Below are positions 4,545 to 40,715 of a stretch of DNA of 42,417 nt, one piece after another. Each line of letters opens with the position of its first letter. Within the stretch, counting starts at the first letter, position 1. Source of the DNA: a virus. The notes beneath the pieces were generated by a model. That model searched no databases and was not told the origin of the DNA. It was given only the letters and a program-made list of their open reading frames with translations. The stretch is from UHGV virus genome UHGV-0385671. One strand, given 5' to 3'. Position numbers and translations under genes: made by a program.

Positions 4545-5234
4545 ATGACTGTGGGTAATAAGAGACAGCCTAATGGATTACCTGAATATTATTGTCACCG
4601 TGGTAACGACATAAAAGATGCGATAGTTCGGGATTTTACTATTCAGCCTGTTGCACACCTGAAACTTATTACTGGACAAACTAAAACCAGTTATTCCGGT
4701 TATCCGTTAACCGATCAGTACTATTGTTTTTCATTTAAAAAACGCTCTGATGAAAATTGTACAGGGGCTTTTTTCTGTGGTAGAGATGTTGCAAAGGATT
4801 TCATTCGGCGTATCGGTTGTACAGAGCTGCCGTTATTTAATCCTATGAAATCGGATACCAGTGCAGCAATAGAACGTTCCGGTTCTGGCTCAGGTAGTTC
4901 TGGTATTACTGTCAAGCCAAATGCTGACAAAAAGCTATTTATAGACGCAGTTCGTCTGTTAATGACGCTGTGGGATTCAACAAGTAAGGGACAAACCCCA
5001 CTGGCGTCGGTTCTTAATGAAGCAATTTCTGGTGGTATAGATAAACCTCCAGAAATTAGACATGTAGTGGCGGTTAATACAATGTTGGGTAACACAAAAA
5101 ATACTTTAACTGGTCTGCTGGATAAAGCAAGAGCGAAGTATCCTGATGTGTTATTCAGAGATTTTGATTTCACGCCTCTTAACGAGATTGTAAAACGTTC
5201 AAAATCATATAATAAGCATCCCCCTTGTTATTGA
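4545..5234 (+). CDS. Hypothetical Cys-rich protein with Gly/Ser linker, encoded antisense inside the leftward replication operon
   Basis: Strong SD AAGGAGA 7 nt upstream of ATG 4545; Cys/His cluster at N-terminus (CHRGN..C..C..C), SGSGSGSSG linker; lower GC by eye than neighbours. Confidence 0.6.
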   Translation: MTVGNKRQPNGLPEYYCHRGNDIKDAIVRDFTIQPVAHLKLITGQTKTSYSGYPLTDQYYCFSFKKRSDENCTGAFFCGRDVAKDFIRRIGCTELPLFNPMKSDTSAAIERSGSGSGSSGITVKPNADKKLFIDAVRLLMTLWDSTSKGQTPLASVLNEAISGGIDKPPEIRHVVAVNTMLGNTKNTLTGLLDKARAKYPDVLFRDFDFTPLNEIVKRSKSYNKHPPCY

Positions 5235-34678: not shown

Positions 34679-35355
34679 GCAAATACACCGAACTAATCAC
34701 GAACTACCACGCCACCAAACCTAAATTTCTTGCACATGTTGATCTGATGACCCGGCCGCTTATTGATGTTGCGGCTGCGACCAGAGGGCTGATTACTGCA
34801 TTTGATATTGACTCTGCGGTTGGTGTGCAACTTGACATTCTGGGATTGTGGATCGGACGTAGCCGTGTTGTCAGCCAGCCTATCTCAGGTGTCTATTTCA
34901 GCTGGGATACCGACGGGCTTGGATATGATCAGGGTGTATGGCAGGGACCATACGATCCTGATTCAGGATACATGTATCTCAGCGATGAAACTTATCGTGT
35001 CATTCTTAAAGCGAAGATTGCGATTAATAACTGGGACGGACGGAATGATTCGCTTCCGGCAATTCTTGACGCGGCAACAGCAGGATCCGGGGTACGAATG
35101 CAGATAGTCGATAACCAGGACATGACGATATCGGTCTGGGTCTTTCCTGATACTGATATTTCAGATGTATCGCATGAGTTAATTGCGGCAATTAAACAGG
35201 GGTATCTCACAGTAAAAGCCGCCGGGGTATGGGCGGGTGGCATTGAAACACCTTCGGTGGAAACCCCATCGGAAGGTTCAAAATTTTTTGGTTTTGATAT
35301 GGATAACGAATTCATCAGTGGTTTTGATGTAGGGGCATGGGGAGTATTACTCTGA
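34675..35355 (+). CDS. Tail protein, YmfQ/DUF2313-like (Mu gp48-like)
   Basis: 226 aa; ATGA overlaps; position. Confidence 0.55.
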
Positions 35356-36452
35356 TGGCAAAAAATGACTTTAAAGCATTCGCAACGGGTAAAAATGCCA
35401 ATGTTATGTCGCAGGAGGAATGGGAAGCGTTGCCTGCGCTTTTATCCGGATTTACAGCAGGGAAAGCATCCAGTGCGCAAGTCAATAAGGTTATTCGACA
35501 GGCCAGCTTTATTGCATCTGCAATGGCACAATATACAGCAAATGAAAGTGGACTGGATGTACAGGACGATGGCGATCAGGCCGGCTTTATCGCAAAAATG
35601 TCGTCTGCATTAGATAAGAACTATCAGAGAATTAATGCCATACTTACCGCACTTGCTAATCTTTCAGCATCCGAAAACAAATTACCGTATTTTACCAATC
35701 AAGATACCGCTAATTTGGCTGACCTGACACAGGTTGGGCGAGATATTTTGGCAAAAAGCTCTGTTGCTGATGTCCTTAAATATCTTGGTTTGGAAAATAA
35801 TTCGACCTTTCCTGTAGGTGCCCCGATCCCGTGGCCATCAGATACAGTTCCATCTGGTTATGCTCTGATGCAGGGACAGACTTTTGACAAGTCTGCATAC
35901 CCGAAACTTGCAGCCGCTTATCCGTCAGGCGTGATCCCTGATATGCGTGGCTGGACGATTAAGGGCAAGCCCGCCAGTGGTCGTGCCGTATTGTCTCAGG
36001 AACAGGACGGCATTAAATCGCACACCCACAGCGCCAGTGCTTCAGATACAGATTTAGGGACAAAAAACACATCATCGTTTGATTATGGAACTAAATCTAC
36101 GAATAACACTGGTGCGCATACCCATAGCGTTAGCGGAACAGCAGCTTCAGCAGGTGCACATACGCATCCGATATCTCAGGGGGATAATGCTAACGTTAGC
36201 TCCGGTAGAGTAGCTTCGTCGAACTCTGCTCAAACTCACTTAGGTGCAACGAATTCTGCTGGCGCGCATACCCACTCAGTATCAGGTACCGCAGCAAGTG
36301 CTGGGGCGCATACACATACTGTCGCTATTGGTGCACATACGCACTTTGTTGCGATTGGTTCACATGGACACACCATCACCGTTAACGCTGCTGGTAACGC
36401 GGAAAACACCGTCAAAAACATCGCATTTAACTATATTGTGAGGCTTGCATAA
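35355..36452 (+). CDS. Tail fibre protein with C-terminal His-x-His repeat tip (StfE-like)
   Basis: GGGGAG SD 9 nt upstream of ATG 35355; six HxH motifs (GAHTHS x4, GAHTHF, GSHGHT); followed by tfa. Confidence 0.75.
36111..36317 (+). repeat. Two copies of a 19-codon segment encoding identical [19 protein letters not shown] with 13 of 19 codons synonymously different
   Basis: Copy 1 at 36111..36167, copy 2 at 36261..36317; includes AGC/TCA serine codon-family switches. Confidence 0.7.
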
Positions 36453-37024
36453 TGGCATTCAGAATGAGTGAACAATCACGGACCATAAAAATTTATAATC
36501 TGCTGTCCGGAACTAATGAATTTATTGGTGAAGGTGATGCATATATTCCACCCCATACAGGGCTGCCTGCAAACAGTACCGATATTGCACCGCCAGATAT
36601 TCCGGCTGGCTTCGTGGCTGTTTTCAACAGTGATGAGGCATTGTGGCATCTCGTTGAAGACCATCGGGGAAAAACCGTCTATGACGTGGCTTCCGGCGAC
36701 GCGTTATTTATTTCTGAACTTGGCCCATTACCGGAAAACGTCACCTGGTTGTCGCCGGATGGGGAGTTTCAGAAGTGGAACGGCACAGCCTGGGTGAAAG
36801 ATGCAGAAGGAGAAAAACTGTTCCGGATCCGGGAGGCGGAAGAGAAAAAGGCAAGATTAATCCAGGAAGCGACTGATAACATAACAATTCTGCAGGATGC
36901 TGTTAATTTTGAAATGGCAACTGATGAGGAAGTATCGATGCTATCTTCCTGGAAAAAATACCGGGTATTAGTGAGTCGGATTGATATAAATACAGCTCCG
37001 GATATTGTATGGCCAGAGCTGTGA
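36452..37024 (+). CDS. tfa: Tail fibre assembly protein (Tfa; e14 TfaE-like)
   Basis: N-terminus [61 protein letters not shown] matches my recollection of E. coli e14 TfaE. Confidence 0.85.
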
Positions 37025-37034
37025 TTAAACGGAA

Positions 37035-37580
37035 TTATGTGTGAGATGAGTTATAAATAATTTCAGAGTGAAATTTAGTAATGAATGTGGAGTCATCAGG
37101 AATGTCATGCAGTACCAATGCATGAGCTCCTATTTTTACATCATTCCCTATATGCACTTTGCCACCAAGGATGGTGGCGTTACAGCCAATGGTTACATTA
37201 TTTCCTATGACAATATCCATATCATTAAATTCACCGCGAAGTCCAATAGTTACTCCAGGCTTAATTGAACAATTTTCACCTATTGTAACTTTGTGACCGA
37301 TAACAACGCCATTGAGATAAGATATGTCAAACCCTTTACCAATATTTACAGTTAAGGGAACGGTTACATTGTATTTATCAAGAATGAAACGTTCTATTTT
37401 TCCCGCAATCTTCCGACAGTATCCGCCTTTATCAAAAAGGTATTTGGCTATGCGCCACCAAAATAAATAACGTAATCTTCTGTGTTTTATTGCGCGAACA
37501 ATTGCTTTTCGCCAGGAGAAAGGGCGTTTATAACCTATTACTTCATAGTGTATACACTTTTTAAGTTCACTAATATTCAT
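37035..37580 (-). CDS. Left-handed beta-helix (hexapeptide-repeat) acetyltransferase, WcaB/serine acetyltransferase-like; candidate surface-polysaccharide modifier
   Basis: Tandem hexapeptide repeats (VVIGHKVTIGENCSIKPGVTIG..., IVIGNNVTIGCNATILGGKVHIGNDVKIGAHALV); AT-rich; convergent with tfa. Confidence 0.7.
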   Translation of the reverse strand: MNISELKKCIHYEVIGYKRPFSWRKAIVRAIKHRRLRYLFWWRIAKYLFDKGGYCRKIAGKIERFILDKYNVTVPLTVNIGKGFDISYLNGVVIGHKVTIGENCSIKPGVTIGLRGEFNDMDIVIGNNVTIGCNATILGGKVHIGNDVKIGAHALVLHDIPDDSTFITKFHSEIIYNSSHT

Positions 37581-37661
37581 ATGTCTATTATTCAGTAAAG
37601 ATAATTCTGTAACTTATTATTATATTAAGTTTAATGAGATTTTTCTACAGTTTACTGTCTT

Positions 37662-37793
37662 ACTCTCACGCCGGAGCAATGGGCGCAGGCTGGACGACAA
37701 ATTGCATCAGGAGTTTCTCGCCAGAAAGTGGCGATCATCTATGATGTTGGCGTATCGACTTTGTATAAGAAGTTTCCGGTCGGAGATGAATGA
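37662..37793 (+). pseudogene. 3' remnant of a Pin/Gin/Hin-family DNA invertase gene (C-terminal HTH only; catalytic domain missing)
   Basis: Frame encodes LTPEQWAQAGRQIASGVSRQKVAIIYDVGVSTLYKKFPVGDE, aligning with my recollection of the Pin C-terminus (LTKAEWEQAGRLLAQGIPRKQVALIYDVALSTLYKKHP); in-frame stop 27 nt upstream, no start. Confidence 0.65.
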
Positions 37794-37874
37794 AACCGTG
37801 GCACGTCGTATGCAAGAACGTGCCACGACTGGCTGATAAGCTTGTAAAAATCTTGAACAGGGAGTGGAGCATTT

Positions 37875-38522
37875 CTATGAAGCTAATTTGTTTAATTTCA
37901 TTTGTAGCGACTTTACTTCTTGGTCGATAATGTTGAATCCCTTATTGACGGCATCTCTTAGCTCTGCATCAATATTTTTTATCCCTTGAGCATAATCTAC
38001 CATTACATCTATTTTTTCATCATGTAATCTCTTATACATGGTTTTATCTTTGTTATTGTCAGCCATACCAATAAGGATTTTTTCATAATCCTCAATGAGT
38101 TTGTTGTTTCCTTTAAATGATTGTATTAATGACCGTGAATATGTGTAGATATTAATTATTGAGTCTCTGGCAGAATCATTTAGTTTTGCAATGACATTCG
38201 CATTTTGCTCATAGAATGTGAAATTATCATCCCCTACAGGGAAAGTGAGAATTAACATCTGTCCGGGTTTGATATTATCAATGTGTGTTTTCATCCTTTT
38301 ATTATATAAATTGATTAGGGTGAAAACTTCTCCCTTAACACCTTTTAATACTGAAAGTTGCAATTCAAGGGATTCTCTTTCTGTCTCTACTTTAGACAGC
38401 TTAGCTTGTTGGGTAACTCCTTTTAGGGTAAACCATCCGCCAATAAGAGTACCAACTAGAGCTGTGAGGGAGGAGGATAACCATCCAGGAATGCTATTTA
38501 AAAAATTACTAAATTCACTCAT
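37875..38522 (-). CDS. Membrane-anchored hypothetical protein (215 aa; N-terminal TM helix, coiled coil, C-terminal domain)
   Basis: Hydrophobic WLSSSLTALVGTLIGGWFTL near N-terminus; AT-rich; between invertase remnant and integrase. Confidence 0.55.
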   Translation of the reverse strand: MSEFSNFLNSIPGWLSSSLTALVGTLIGGWFTLKGVTQQAKLSKVETERESLELQLSVLKGVKGEVFTLINLYNKRMKTHIDNIKPGQMLILTFPVGDDNFTFYEQNANVIAKLNDSARDSIINIYTYSRSLIQSFKGNNKLIEDYEKILIGMADNNKDKTMYKRLHDEKIDVMVDYAQGIKNIDAELRDAVNKGFNIIDQEVKSLQMKLNKLAS

Positions 38523-38582
38523 TATAAGTACTCGCTAATATTGAACGATATATATATATCAAATTATTATAAAACTCGTCAG

Positions 38583-39014
38583 CTACTGGAGAAGGCTACC
38601 TGAACTTCGATCTATTCCTGCATCCATATAGTTGATGGTCTTCTGGAGCTCTTCGATTAGGGCAACAGCTTTTGCTCGAGAAATGCATATTAGTTGATCC
38701 GGAAATTCTTGTAAGGACCAGTTTGGTATACTGGCCATGTTATCAGTGAAGGATGCAGACAAGTAAACTTCATTGGTAACCAGAGAATAGCTTACCTCAA
38801 AATTGGTGAGCTCCGGCAAACTGCTAATGTTTGACTCTTTTCTGCGCATAACGTTATCCAGGACTGTGATTATGTACAGGTGATGGTCTTCAATTTTGAA
38901 GAGGGAGTCAAGGGGAGTCTCAAATGAACCGTTATAGAAAGGGGGGATCTTTGTGTTGCTGAACTTATGCAAAATTTTTTTGCACCATAAATCCAACAAC
39001 ACATTCAATAACAC
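38583..39014 (-). CDS. Hypothetical protein (143 aa; start uncertain, alternative ATG at 38849)
   Basis: AT-rich ORF upstream of and co-oriented with 37875..38522; no convincing SD for the longest start. Confidence 0.45.
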   Translation of the reverse strand: MLLNVLLDLWCKKILHKFSNTKIPPFYNGSFETPLDSLFKIEDHHLYIITVLDNVMRRKESNISSLPELTNFEVSYSLVTNEVYLSASFTDNMASIPNWSLQEFPDQLICISRAKAVALIEELQKTINYMDAGIDRSSGSLLQ

Positions 39015-39317
39015 ATTGCTGTATTACTATGAAAATAAATGTGTTTTTATTTGATCTCACACATATCACAATTAATACAGCGTTTAGTAATTAGTAAAGA
39101 CATTTCAATGAATTACCGTTAAATCATTTTAAAATCAGTAAGTTGTATCGAGTTTGTATGCTTTACTGTCATTAACTTACTGTATGTTGATCCAGTGTAT
39201 TTAACCTTGATAAACTCAGTCCAGCAACACAAAACCGCAACACATTACATTTTGTCCCGTAGAAAAGACTTGTATGTGTGAGCTTGTTTTCTGCGCCTAC
39301 GCAGATAAGGATTGAGA

Positions 39318-40715
39318 ATGCCGCGCACTGTAACACATAATCCGGATAGCCCCAATAATGACGATGTTTTAGCCGCATCTGAAAAATGGGACGCCTGTAA
39401 ACCCCCCTATACCAGCGCACACATGAAAATCTGTGTTGCTGCCGCCAAAATCATCCTCGCTGCTTCCGGTGTGGCTCGCCGTTCCAAATACGAAAAAGAG
39501 AACTATCTCCGTATCGATTTCAGCAAAGCCGGTAAGGTTACATTTTACGCCGAGTTTCCAAAAAAGATGGGCCTCAAAGGTAAAAAGCTCGGCGAGTGGC
39601 CGGAGCTCGCTATCCAGCTGGCGCGCGAAAAAGCGCTAGGTATGGCTGACGGTGGCCTGCGGGCAGAGTCCGTACATGCAGCGCTGGAAATGTACCGGGA
39701 TGACCTCAAAGCCAAAGTCGCACGGCAGAAGCTGAGCCCGGACAGTTTCACAACCTACGGGGTGCGTATAGACCGGATTAAAGCAACGTTCGGCGAGCGC
39801 GAGGTGTTCAGCGACGTAACATACAATCGGCTGGTGGAAGTGCTGGACGAGTGGATCGCCACTCGCTCGAACAATAACGCCCTGGAGTTGTTTGCCGAGC
39901 TCCGTCGGTTCTGGAAGTTCTGCGCACCTACTCTTTGCAACGGCCGCAATGTTGCCGCCAGTCTGCCAGATGATTATGTTTCCTCCCGCGTACAGAAACC
40001 TACCCCCACACGGCTTTTTACCGATATTGAATCAATCGCCCGACTCTGGCTCAATGTTGCTGCCTGCGCCTCTGTACACCAGAAGAATGCTGTTCGCTTC
40101 ATGATCATCACTGGCGTTCGTCCGATTAATGTCCATAACCTGCGCTGGGACTACGTTCACGAGGAGGCTGGTGAAATTGTTTATCCGGAAGGGGTTATCG
40201 GCATGCGAGGGGCTATGAAAACACAAAAGGCTTTCCGCCTGCCGATAACGCCTGAGATCCGGCGGATTATCGACGAGCAGAAAGCCTGGCGTGATTCAGT
40301 TCCTGAGTGCAATAGGGATTATGTATTTTTGCAGCCACGTGATCCAATGCAGCCATTTTCAAAACGATCACTGGATAAGCTAGTGAAAACATACAGCCCG
40401 GACGGGGCTGTAAAAGGAATAAAACATGATGGGACTGTTAAAGGGAAAGACGGTGCATTTAATACTATGTGCCGTAAATTCCTTAAGAGCAATGTTATTG
40501 CCTTGATGAAGGAAAGAGGCTATTCCCGCTCAGACCGAAGGGAAATCAGCCTCCTTTGCCTTCATCACTCCAGCAAGTCAGATGACCCGATGGCAGAACA
40601 TTACGACTTTTCTGATGAGATTTTACAGGAAGAGATTGCGTTGAAGCGCGAAGCTTTCGAAGCTCACGAGCGGAGCATACTTGCGCAGGTGGCATTGCTA
40701 CGACGGCGAGGTTAA
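39318..40715 (+). CDS. int: Tyrosine integrase (P4-like family)
   Basis: AAGGA SD upstream of ATG 39318; catalytic-region motifs TGVRPINVHNLRWDYV, MKTQKAFRLPI, LCLHHSSKS, EHYDFS. Confidence 0.8.
   Translation: MPRTVTHNPDSPNNDDVLAASEKWDACKPPYTSAHMKICVAAAKIILAASGVARRSKYEKENYLRIDFSKAGKVTFYAEFPKKMGLKGKKLGEWPELAIQLAREKALGMADGGLRAESVHAALEMYRDDLKAKVARQKLSPDSFTTYGVRIDRIKATFGEREVFSDVTYNRLVEVLDEWIATRSNNNALELFAELRRFWKFCAPTLCNGRNVAASLPDDYVSSRVQKPTPTRLFTDIESIARLWLNVAACASVHQKNAVRFMIITGVRPINVHNLRWDYVHEEAGEIVYPEGVIGMRGAMKTQKAFRLPITPEIRRIIDEQKAWRDSVPECNRDYVFLQPRDPMQPFSKRSLDKLVKTYSPDGAVKGIKHDGTVKGKDGAFNTMCRKFLKSNVIALMKERGYSRSDRREISLLCLHHSSKSDDPMAEHYDFSDEILQEEIALKREAFEAHERSILAQVALLRRRG

What the first reader, a model, noticed from the sequence alone, without database searches (positions are those of the whole stretch)
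37875..39014. Two AT-rich unknown genes between the invertase remnant and the integrase (candidate lysogen-expressed defence cargo)
A membrane-anchored 215-aa protein and a 143-aa protein are co-oriented opposite to the tail genes in the cargo position next to int, analogous to the lambda b region or P2 hotspots. Neither carries a motif I recognise.
Basis: partly seen in the sequence, partly recalled or inferred. Interest (0 to 1): 0.7.

Follow-up and report, generated by a model that had tools for sequence, protein, structure and literature searches.

The report
Unknown membrane protein carried as prophage cargo
Only one of the two genes is movable cargo: a 215-residue membrane-anchored protein of an unnamed family that recurs in the accessory-gene spots of many phages, satellites and conjugative elements and so probably protects the host against other phages, while the other is a short conserved gene of this phage's own backbone.

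Summary
Both ORFs exist, are AT-rich and run opposite to the tail genes. They are not a pair.

**The "143-aa" ORF** is really 88 aa (38583-38849). It is the conserved terminal backbone gene of SEN34-like (Brunovirus) temperate myophages.

**The 215-aa gene** (37875-38522) is a stand-alone mobile gene.
- In complete E. coli genomes the slot between the pin invertase and the 88-aa gene holds either this gene (80 genomes) or an unrelated 281-aa gene (44).
- Homologues of 60-74% identity sit alone in a P2 gpA-gpQ defence hotspot, in the rexAB position of a lambdoid prophage, after tail gene J, beside an integrase, in an ICE, and next to higBA.
- Distant homologues lie downstream of the primase gene in capsid-forming PICI-like satellites.
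- The protein has one N-out/C-in membrane helix and a cytoplasmic three-helix bundle.
- It matches nothing in Pfam, NCBIfam, PHROGs, PADLOC, PDB or BFVD.
- A profile search finds 672 unannotated cluster representatives.

**Integrase adjacency.** The integrase is a neighbour only across attP, whose core (39056-39073) lies in host yfhL. In a lysogen the genes sit at the attR end, downstream of the host yfhL promoter.

**Verdict.** This is a plausible new single-gene anti-phage or exclusion family. No function has been tested.

The parts
37875..38522 (-). ORF215: stand-alone cargo gene. It encodes a single-pass (N-out/C-in) inner-membrane protein with a cytoplasmic three-helix bundle and founds an unannotated family.
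   Evidence: ORF. Homologues. AF2 model has pLDDT 82 with helices 32-82, 116-154 and 160-214. Hydrophobicity and positive-inside bias. Signal-peptide variants. dN/dS is 0.076. No family hits.
38583..38849 (-). It is a small acidic soluble protein and the conserved attP-proximal backbone gene of SEN34-like phages.
   Evidence: PHROG 17793 aligns from Met56. Homologues of 88 aa. Same position in Salmonella prophages, SEN34 and 606R2. AF2 gives a beta-beta-beta-alpha fold at pLDDT 70.
38850..39014 (-). Non-coding leader upstream of ORF88, wrongly included in the 143-aa ORF.
   Evidence: In-frame stops in relatives. Indels among E. coli copies.
37797..37827 (-). A GC-rich hairpin of about 11-12 bp, 47 nt after the ORF215 stop. 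It is a possible terminator between the convergent ORF215 and the pin remnant.
   Evidence: Fold, coordinates. The U-tract is weak, the z-score is -1.8, and the terminator scan did not call it.
37665..37793 (+). Remnant of the pin DNA invertase (last 42 codons). It is the conserved left flank of the cargo slot.
   Evidence: 93% identity to PinE residues 143-184. PGAP annotates it as a pseudogene in relatives.
37035..37580 (-). Hexapeptide-repeat acetyltransferase (WcaB/EpsC/WbbJ-like). It is a second cargo gene and sits where relatives carry the invertible tail-fibre segment.
   Evidence: Pfam Hexapep and phrog_2154. NCBIfam. Relatives with an intact pin and inverted fibre genes.
39056..39073 (.). 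attP identity core (AATTGTGATATGTGTGAG on the minus strand), inside the 5' end of host yfhL.
   Evidence: The junction alignments overlap at 39057-39093. Host and phage sequences compared.
39047..39103 (-). Phage-borne 5' end of yfhL (MSLLITKRCINCDMCEIK*). It would rebuild yfhL at attL. It is co-oriented with ORF88 and ORF215.
   Evidence: yfhL lies under the int-side match in lysogens.
39312..40715 (+). Tyrosine integrase, across attP from the cargo. The listed ORF starts at TTG and the true start is uncertain.
   Evidence: Pfam Phage_integrase E=4e-7. PGAP names it 'tyrosine-type recombinase/integrase' in lysogens.

Best explanation
ORF215 is a self-contained mobile cargo gene that the prophage carries for the benefit of the lysogen, most likely to protect it against other phages.

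**Proposed mechanism**
- The protein is inserted in the inner membrane by one N-terminal helix. About 12 residues face the periplasm and a roughly 180-residue three-helix bundle faces the cytoplasm.
- The cytoplasmic bundle senses or binds a component of an infecting phage at the membrane.
- The conserved GxxxGG membrane helix then drives oligomerisation that perturbs the membrane, so the infection aborts.

**Expression in a lysogen**
- The gene lies at the attR end, downstream of ORF88 and of the host yfhL promoter, with no predicted terminator in between. It can therefore be transcribed while the phage's lytic genes are repressed.
- ORF88 is not part of this function. It is the conserved first gene of this inward-reading transcription unit, and its own role is unknown.

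**Status of each step**
- Shown: the gene is real and under constraint, it moves as a single gene between mobile elements, and it has no known homologue.
- Inferred from sequence and family: topology and fold.
- Pure inference: anti-phage activity, the trigger, the membrane effect and lysogen expression.
For: **The slot is variable.** Of 124 complete E. coli genomes with ORF88, 80 carry ORF215 and 44 carry an unrelated 281-aa gene at the same place. Phage 606R2 has the 281-aa allele.

**It moves as a single gene with changing neighbours.** Close homologues are found:
- in the P2-like gpA-gpQ hotspot, beside hicAB and a DUF4145 / PD-T7-4-like gene (hotspot defined in PMC9122126);
- directly after a cI-like repressor plus an HSDR_N gene in a Providencia lambdoid prophage, the position rexAB holds in phage lambda (that comparison is from my own knowledge of the lambda map);
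- after tail gene J in Morganella;
- at a prophage end by icd in Citrobacter;
- next to int in a Klebsiella capsid-bearing element;
- in a Dickeya ICE with ccdAB;
- next to higBA in Enterobacter.

**Distant homologues are also on mobile elements.**
- Distant homologues (hhalign probability 98.3% for the one tested, P0362) lie downstream of the primase gene in capsid-forming PICI-like satellites. PMC11364771 describes that region as a PICI immunity accessory region.
- Another distant homologue sits at a mobile-element edge next to smpB and an integrase.

**It is sporadic.** It is present in 1.5% of complete E. coli genomes. Only 7 loci were found among the representative genomes of 185,579 species.

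**Topology.**
- K+R counts are 0.1 before and 3.5-4 after the hydrophobic segment.
- Family variants have a signal peptide plus a 40-70-residue stretch before the membrane helix.
- The GxxxGG motif is conserved even at about 25% identity.

**Prior.** Six of 8 randomly chosen unknown loci in P4 hotspots were defensive (PMC13586616).

**Neighbouring cargo in this phage lineage modifies the cell surface.** SEN34 carries an O-acetyltransferase, Salmonella relatives carry an Acyl_transf_3 gene, and the window carries a hexapeptide acetyltransferase.

**Possible route to expression.** The host yfhL promoter (a perfect TATAAT) reads toward ORF88 and ORF215, and no terminator is predicted in between.
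Against: - No functional evidence of any kind exists. PADLOC finds nothing in close or distant members.
- The fold is a generic helical bundle with no informative structural neighbour (best PDB E=0.1, BFVD E=0.065). There is no catalytic or pore motif.
- The window copy has the weakest hydrophobic segment of the family.
- No convincing sigma-70 promoter was found directly upstream of ORF88 or ORF215.
- The window copy lacks the roughly 130-nt upstream element that homologues in other elements share.
- The DNA is AT-rich (33.5% GC), so H-NS might silence it.
- The gene is absent from all 50,697 deposited phage genomes.
- Accessory positions also hold non-defence morons.
Confidence: 0.4

Rival explanations
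1. ORF215 is a superinfection-exclusion protein. It sits in the inner membrane and blocks genome entry of particular phages without killing the cell, in the manner of P22 SieA, or of HK97 gp15 and T4 Imm (the last two are cited from my own knowledge).
For: It is an inner-membrane protein encoded by a prophage at a lysogenic-conversion locus. Its homologue sits right after tail gene J, where lambdoid phages keep exclusion genes (that placement is my own knowledge). SieA also has a conserved cytoplasmic motif and acts at the inner membrane (PMC10883804).
Against: Nearly all of the protein is cytoplasmic and only about 12 residues face the periplasm, which is not ideal for meeting an injection conduit. 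It also occurs in an ICE, in satellites and in a phage-free islet next to higBA, which suggests a more general host-protective role than self-exclusion by one phage type. It has no sequence relation to SieB or Imm in Pfam or to any PHROG family. SieA has three membrane helices and 162-164 residues.
Confidence: 0.2
2. ORF215 is a non-defence moron. It would be a membrane-tethered helical protein that alters host physiology, for example envelope stress, cell division, or regulation by sequestering a cytoplasmic partner. On this view it spreads because it benefits the host or the element in other ways.
For: N-terminally anchored cytoplasmic helical bundles are typical of division and envelope regulators (my own knowledge). 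The weak fold matches are to BAR, PspA and ESCRT-III-like helical proteins. No defence model hits it. Neighbours include umuDC, dinI and SRAP stress genes in two contexts.
Against: It recurs in positions shown experimentally to be rich in anti-phage genes: P2 gpA-gpQ, the region downstream of pri in PICIs, and the position that rexAB holds in lambda (PMC9122126; PMC11364771). It is very sporadic.
Confidence: 0.25
3. ORF88 and ORF215 form a two-gene system, such as sensor plus effector or toxin plus antitoxin.
For: They are adjacent and co-oriented, 60 nt apart, and probably co-transcribed in this phage. All 80 E. coli copies of ORF215 are next to ORF88.
Against: ORF88 occurs without ORF215 in 44 E. 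coli genomes, in SEN34, 606R2 and Fostie, and in Salmonella prophages. ORF215 homologues in eight other contexts never have an ORF88 homologue beside them. GC content differs (42.7% against 33.5%).
Confidence: 0.05
4. ORF215 is a selfish stabilisation or toxin gene that kills or arrests cells which lose the element.
For: It is small, membrane-directed and AT-rich, and it lies near TA modules in several contexts (higBA, hicAB, ccdAB).
Against: No cognate antitoxin gene is conserved next to it. At 215 aa with a large structured cytoplasmic domain it is unlike type I membrane toxins. Strong purifying selection acts over the whole length.
Confidence: 0.05

Closest known systems
Cargo genes of the phage and satellite defence hotspots: P2 gpA-gpQ (old, tin and others), the P4 cos-proximal hotspot, and the PICI region downstream of pri (Rousset et al. 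2022, PMC9122126; PMC13586616; PMC11364771)
   Same: A variable slot between conserved flanks. A single gene that shuttles between unrelated mobile elements. One close homologue lies in the P2 hotspot itself, and distant ones lie in the PICI region downstream of pri. The DNA is AT-rich and the gene is oriented against the phage late genes.
   Different: No sequence or profile match to any described system (PADLOC). No experimental phenotype. The slot in this phage (pin to ORF88 at the attR end of a SEN34-like myophage) has not been described as a hotspot in the papers read here.
Prophage membrane proteins that exclude or abort other phages: P22 SieA, lambda RexB, HK97 gp15, T4 Imm
   Same: Small inner-membrane proteins encoded by a prophage and expected to be made in the lysogen. 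A Providencia homologue sits exactly where rexAB sits relative to cI.
   Different: SieA has 3 membrane helices and 162-164 aa (PMC10883804). From my own knowledge, RexB is polytopic and needs RexA. ORF215 has one helix plus a 180-residue cytoplasmic three-helix bundle and works without a conserved partner. There is no Pfam or PHROG relation.
Tai (tail assembly inhibition) proteins, e.g. phi80 TaiEcA (PMC11364771)
   Same: About 200 aa, a single gene, and low identity between homologues. Found in prophages, P4/P2 hotspots and downstream of pri in PICIs. Oriented against the late operon.
   Different: phi80 gp52 (204 aa) was inferred to be TaiEcA from its size and orientation. It shows no relation to the ORF215 family (hhalign probability 0.1%; BLASTP nothing) and has no membrane helix.
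Salmonella phage SEN34 (Brunovirus) lysogenic-conversion locus
   Same: The layout is the same: int, attP, ORF88 homologue (SEN34_31), cargo, tail-fibre assembly gene. ORF88 is 77% identical.
   Different: SEN34's cargo is a membrane O-acetyltransferase. The window carries ORF215 plus a cytoplasmic hexapeptide acetyltransferase, and it integrates in yfhL.

Membership tests
Any described anti-phage defence system (PADLOC-DB v2.0.0) | Significant match to a system's protein HMM | tested here: not met
   No hit at E<=1 for ORF215, ORF88 or the acetyltransferase. Only noise (E>=0.003) for 13 distant family members. Models newer than 2023 could not be searched.
Mobile-element hotspot cargo (operational class) | Alternative unrelated genes at the same place between conserved flanks | tested here: met
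   80 E. coli genomes carry ORF215 and 44 carry a 281-aa gene, both between pin and ORF88.
Mobile-element hotspot cargo (operational class) | The same gene is found in recognised hotspots of other elements | tested here: met
   P2-like gpA-gpQ (PMC9122126). Downstream of pri in PICI-like satellites for distant homologues (PMC11364771). After cI in a lambdoid prophage.
Mobile-element hotspot cargo (operational class) | Confers resistance to phage infection | not testable with these tools
   Needs cloning or deletion and a phage challenge.
P22 SieA-type superinfection exclusion | Polytopic inner-membrane protein (3-4 membrane helices, about 160-200 aa) with the cytoplasmic motif FxRYPxEAxxFNK | tested here: not met
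   Only one hydrophobic segment. The motif is absent from the sequence. No significant PHROG match (best E=0.06, to families of unknown function). SieA features taken from PMC10883804.
SieB and T4 Imm (Pfam families) | Match to the Pfam model | tested here: not met
   The Pfam scan at E<=0.1 returned only DUF7201 at E=0.043, below its cut-off. That these families have Pfam models is my own knowledge.
Tai (tail assembly inhibition) | Homology to TaiEcA (phi80 orf63) | tested here: not met
   hhalign probability 0.1% and no BLASTP alignment to phi80 gp52. That gp52 is TaiEcA is inferred from size and orientation.
Abortive-infection membrane effectors (functional class) | Infection-triggered loss of membrane integrity, with death or arrest of the infected cell | not testable with these tools
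   Only the architecture is compatible: a membrane helix with conserved GxxxGG and a cytoplasmic domain.
Two-gene system ORF88 + ORF215 | Conserved co-occurrence of the two genes across elements | tested here: not met
   Each gene occurs without the other.
PHROG 17793 (ORF88) | Full-length match to the family profile | tested here: met
   E=1.2e-42, residues 56-143 of the long ORF against profile positions 1-88 of 91. The family has no known function.

The most novel reading that the evidence does not exclude
ORF215 founds a large, unnamed superfamily of single-pass membrane proteins with a cytoplasmic three-helix bundle. The superfamily has 672 cluster representatives at 50% identity, from Enterobacterales to Omnitrophota and Dadabacteria MAGs. 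On this reading it is a new single-gene anti-phage system that shuttles between prophages, P2 hotspots, PICI-like satellites and ICEs. In this phage it would be switched on in lysogens by capture of the host yfhL promoter at attR.
Probability: 0.4. Interest if true: 0.65.

Novelty: new variant of a known kind. Interest (0 to 1): 0.5.

Why it matters
**If ORF215 protects against phages**
- It would add a compact (about 650 bp) single-gene membrane system with no known domains to the defence catalogue.
- It would give a name to a family of several hundred unannotated protein clusters.
- It would mark the pin-to-ORF88 slot of SEN34-like prophages as a further hotspot to mine, and the alternative 281-aa allele would be a second candidate.

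**Testability.** The gene is present in well-studied strains (ETEC H10407, O55:H7 CB9615), so expression and phenotype can be checked directly.

**Promoter capture.** Independently of function, the integration geometry is a neat case of possible promoter capture. The phage rebuilds yfhL at attL and leaves the host yfhL promoter pointing into its cargo at attR.

**If it is not defensive.** It remains an ordinary unknown moron.

Tried and rejected
**Database and structure searches that found nothing**
- Pfam, NCBIfam, PHROGs and PADLOC scans of ORF215, and of 10 + 3 distant relatives, gave nothing significant.
- A PDB sequence-profile search gave nothing.
- Foldseek of the AF2 model against PDB and BFVD gave only generic helical bundles. 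The afdb50 library was unavailable.
- ORF88's model gave only a marginal COMM-domain match at E=0.049.
- tblastn of ORF215 against 50,697 phage genomes gave no match.
- A literature search for WP_001288815 gave nothing.
- All source names for close and distant homologues are "hypothetical protein".

**Tai hypothesis.** It was raised by the shared size and PICI position, and rejected by hhalign.

**Ideas considered and dropped**
- Rz-like spanin, because the predicted topology is opposite, the phage's relative 606R2 has its own Rz, and there is no Pfam or PHROG hit.
- Xis or recombination-directionality role for ORF88, because ORF88 is acidic with a beta3-alpha fold and an HTH_17 (AlpA/Xis-like) gene already sits next to int.

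**Technical failures and weak signals**
- The search for related loci with the distant alignment failed for lack of a conserved stretch. With the close alignment it returned only 7 loci.
- Promoter scans found no convincing promoter for either gene.
- Rfam gave only a sub-threshold CssrB hit.

Full report
**1. The observation**

- ORFs lie at 37875-38522(-), 215 aa, and 38583-39014(-), 143 aa with a GTG start. They face the tail-fibre gene (35337-36452+) and the tail-fibre assembly gene (36452-37024+).
- The region is AT-rich. GC is 33.5% for ORF215, 42.7% for ORF88 and 36.2% for 37035-39093, against 49.2% for the window.
- The invertase remnant is real. 37665-37793(+) is the last 42 residues of PinE at 93% identity.
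- The 143-aa ORF is over-extended.
  - PHROG 17793 (91 positions) aligns from Met56.
  - All Salmonella and Citrobacter homologues are 87-88 aa and start at that Met.
  - The upstream 55 codons contain stops in Salmonella and in phage 606R2, and indels among E. coli copies.
  - The gene is therefore 88 aa, 38583-38849.

**2. What the window is, and where the genes sit in a lysogen**

- The window is co-linear with Escherichia phage vB_EcoM-606R2 apart from a few variable blocks. One of these blocks is 35588-38568.
- It has the same end layout as Salmonella phage SEN34 (Brunovirus): int, attP, ORF88 homologue, cargo, tail-fibre assembly gene.
- In E. coli chromosomes the similarity to the cargo side stops at 39093, next to yfhH.
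- The similarity to the int side starts at 39057, with yfhL under the match.
- Comparing a lysogen junction with the window gives an 18-bp identity core at 39056-39073, inside the 5' end of yfhL.
- The phage carries its own diverged yfhL 5' end (minus-strand ORF 39047-39103, MSLLITKRCINCDMCEIK*). This would rebuild yfhL at attL.
- At attR the host yfhL promoter (a perfect TATAAT) and an 18-codon yfhL' read toward ORF88 and then ORF215. No terminator is predicted in between.
- "Next to int" is therefore true only on the circular phage map. In the prophage the two genes are the last genes at the attR end.

**3. ORF88**

- It is a small acidic soluble protein (7 K+R, 11 D+E), predicted as three strands plus a helix (pLDDT 70). 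It has no informative structural or family match.
- It is conserved at 67-96% identity (67-85% outside E. coli) in E. coli, Salmonella and Citrobacter. dN/dS is 0.27 against the 606R2 allele.
- It is always the attP-proximal gene whatever follows it:
  - an O-acetyltransferase in SEN34 and in Salmonella prophages;
  - a 281-aa unknown gene in 606R2 and in 44 E. coli genomes;
  - dinI in phage Fostie.
- It is therefore a backbone flank of the cargo slot, not cargo. Its function remains unknown. My low-confidence guess is a lysogen-expressed small protein at the head of the inward-reading unit.

**4. ORF215: the protein**

- The family is tightly conserved. Identity is 60-74% between genera, with 215-223 aa in the aligned homologues. 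dN/dS is 0.076 within E. coli.
- The AF2 model (pLDDT 82, pTM 0.72) gives a long helix at 32-82, a conserved loop (FPVGDDNFTFYEQNA), and helices at 116-154 and 160-214. This is a three-helix bundle. Residues 1-36 have low confidence.
- An N-terminal hydrophobic segment is present in 35 of 37 close and 39 of 43 distant homologues. K+R counts are 0.1 before it and 3.5-4 after it.
- Several superfamily members have a cleavable-looking signal peptide plus 40-70 residues before this helix.
- Together these fix the orientation as N-out/C-in, so the bundle is cytoplasmic.
- The membrane helix keeps a GxxxGG pattern even at about 25% identity. This suggests helix-helix packing rather than a mere anchor.
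- The window copy is the least hydrophobic of all (1.35).

**5. ORF215: distribution**

- It is present in 80 of 5,426 complete E. coli genomes. It is always a single copy and always joined to ORF88.
- The other 44 ORF88 carriers have the 281-aa allele, so the slot has two alleles in E. coli.
- It is absent from 50,697 deposited phage genomes. Only 7 loci were found among the representative genomes of 185,579 species.
- Close homologues are single genes with different neighbours:
  - a Dickeya ICE with T4SS genes and ccdAB;
  - an Enterobacter islet next to higBA;
  - a Providencia lambdoid prophage, directly after the cI-like repressor and an HSDR_N gene, which is the rexAB position;
  - next to int in a Klebsiella capsid-bearing element;
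  - after tail gene J in Morganella;
  - the gpA-gpQ hotspot of a Serratia P2-like prophage, beside hicAB and a DUF4145 / PD-T7-4-like gene (hotspot defined in PMC9122126);
  - a Citrobacter prophage end at icd.
- Four of these share a roughly 130-nt upstream element, so the mobile unit brings its own regulatory region. The window copy lacks it.
- A profile search finds 672 representatives at E<=1e-3. The best 150 listed are mostly about 200 aa, and none of those looked up carries a functional name.
- Distant members (hhalign probability 98.3% for P0362, the one tested) lie downstream of the primase gene in capsid-forming PICI-like satellites, followed by a 170-aa unknown partner. PMC11364771 describes that region as a PICI immunity accessory region.
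- Another distant member sits at a mobile-element edge beside smpB and an integrase.

**6. Comparison with known families**

- There is no significant hit in Pfam, NCBIfam, PHROGs or PADLOC for ORF215 or its distant relatives.
- PDB sequence profiles give nothing. Foldseek against PDB and BFVD gives nothing informative.
- Tai was a serious candidate because of its size and its PICI and prophage positions. phi80 gp52, inferred to be TaiEcA, is unrelated.
- SieA differs in having three membrane helices and 162-164 aa.
- None of the new systems described in PMC13586616 resembles ORF215.

**7. Mechanism**

- Best-supported reading (about 0.4): ORF215 is a stand-alone anti-phage cargo gene that acts from the cytoplasmic face of the inner membrane. 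Most likely it is a sensor-effector whose membrane helices oligomerise on infection.
- An injection-blocking exclusion role is the nearest rival (about 0.2).
- A non-defence moron is about 0.25.
- The two-gene and addiction readings are unlikely.
- Mobility, constraint and lack of homologues are shown. Topology and fold are inferred from sequence. Activity, trigger and expression are inference.

**8. Verdict**

The finding is a good but untested candidate for a new single-gene defence or exclusion family. It belongs to a known kind (hotspot cargo) but is a new protein family.

Noticed in passing
window 39047-39103 (-), core 39056-39073: attP lies inside the 5' end of host yfhL. The phage carries a diverged yfhL 5' end (18 codons, then a stop) that would restore the gene at attL. 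At attR the host yfhL promoter is left pointing into ORF88 and ORF215.
   Followed up: partly
window 37035-37580 (-) and 37665-37793 (+): A hexapeptide acetyltransferase (WcaB/EpsC/WbbJ-like, phrog_2154) sits where relatives have the invertible alternative tail-fibre segment. Only the last 42 codons of pin remain, so this phage has probably lost tail-fibre switching and gained a putative polysaccharide acetyltransferase.
   Followed up: partly
L035:3354-4199 (-), E. coli O111:H11 strain 8D; also phage 606R2: The alternative occupant of the same slot is a 281-aa soluble protein (WP_001039129) present in 44 complete E. coli genomes. It has no Pfam or PADLOC hit and is a second unknown cargo candidate.
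   Followed up: partly
L006, L008, L027, L030: about 150 nt upstream of the ORF215 homologues (alignment A4): A roughly 130-nt upstream element is conserved between a Dickeya ICE, an Enterobacter islet, a Morganella prophage and a Serratia P2-like prophage. It may be the module's own promoter or regulator. It is missing from the window copy.
   Followed up: no
L042:7620-8132 (+), L045:7641-8153 (+): In capsid-forming PICI-like satellites the distant ORF215 relative is followed after 13 nt by a co-oriented 170-aa protein with no family. This may be a two-gene variant of the system.
   Followed up: partly
window 4545-5234 (+): A 229-aa gene is oriented against its neighbours, in a block that differs from phage 606R2. 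606R2 in turn carries a TIR-like gene beside its DNA polymerase that the window lacks. These look like further cargo slots in this phage group.
   Followed up: no
window 37771-37827 (+): A sub-threshold Rfam match to the Shigella sRNA CssrB (33.5 bits against a gathering score of 76). It overlaps the GC-rich hairpin between ORF215 and the pin remnant, and the match is probably driven by the hairpin.
   Followed up: no
window 39312-40715 (+): The integrase ORF as listed starts at TTG and is 467 aa. Its Pfam match is weak (E=4e-7) and it has no NCBIfam hit, so it is a divergent tyrosine recombinase with an uncertain start.
   Followed up: no
L030:8750-9445 (+), Serratia P2-like hotspot: The DUF4145 protein next to the ORF215 homologue weakly matches PD-T7-4 (E=5e-5). 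By eye, phi80 gp52 (the inferred TaiEcA) carries an RNDLAH motif that looks DUF4145/HEPN-like, so this neighbour may be a Tai-type gene.
   Followed up: no
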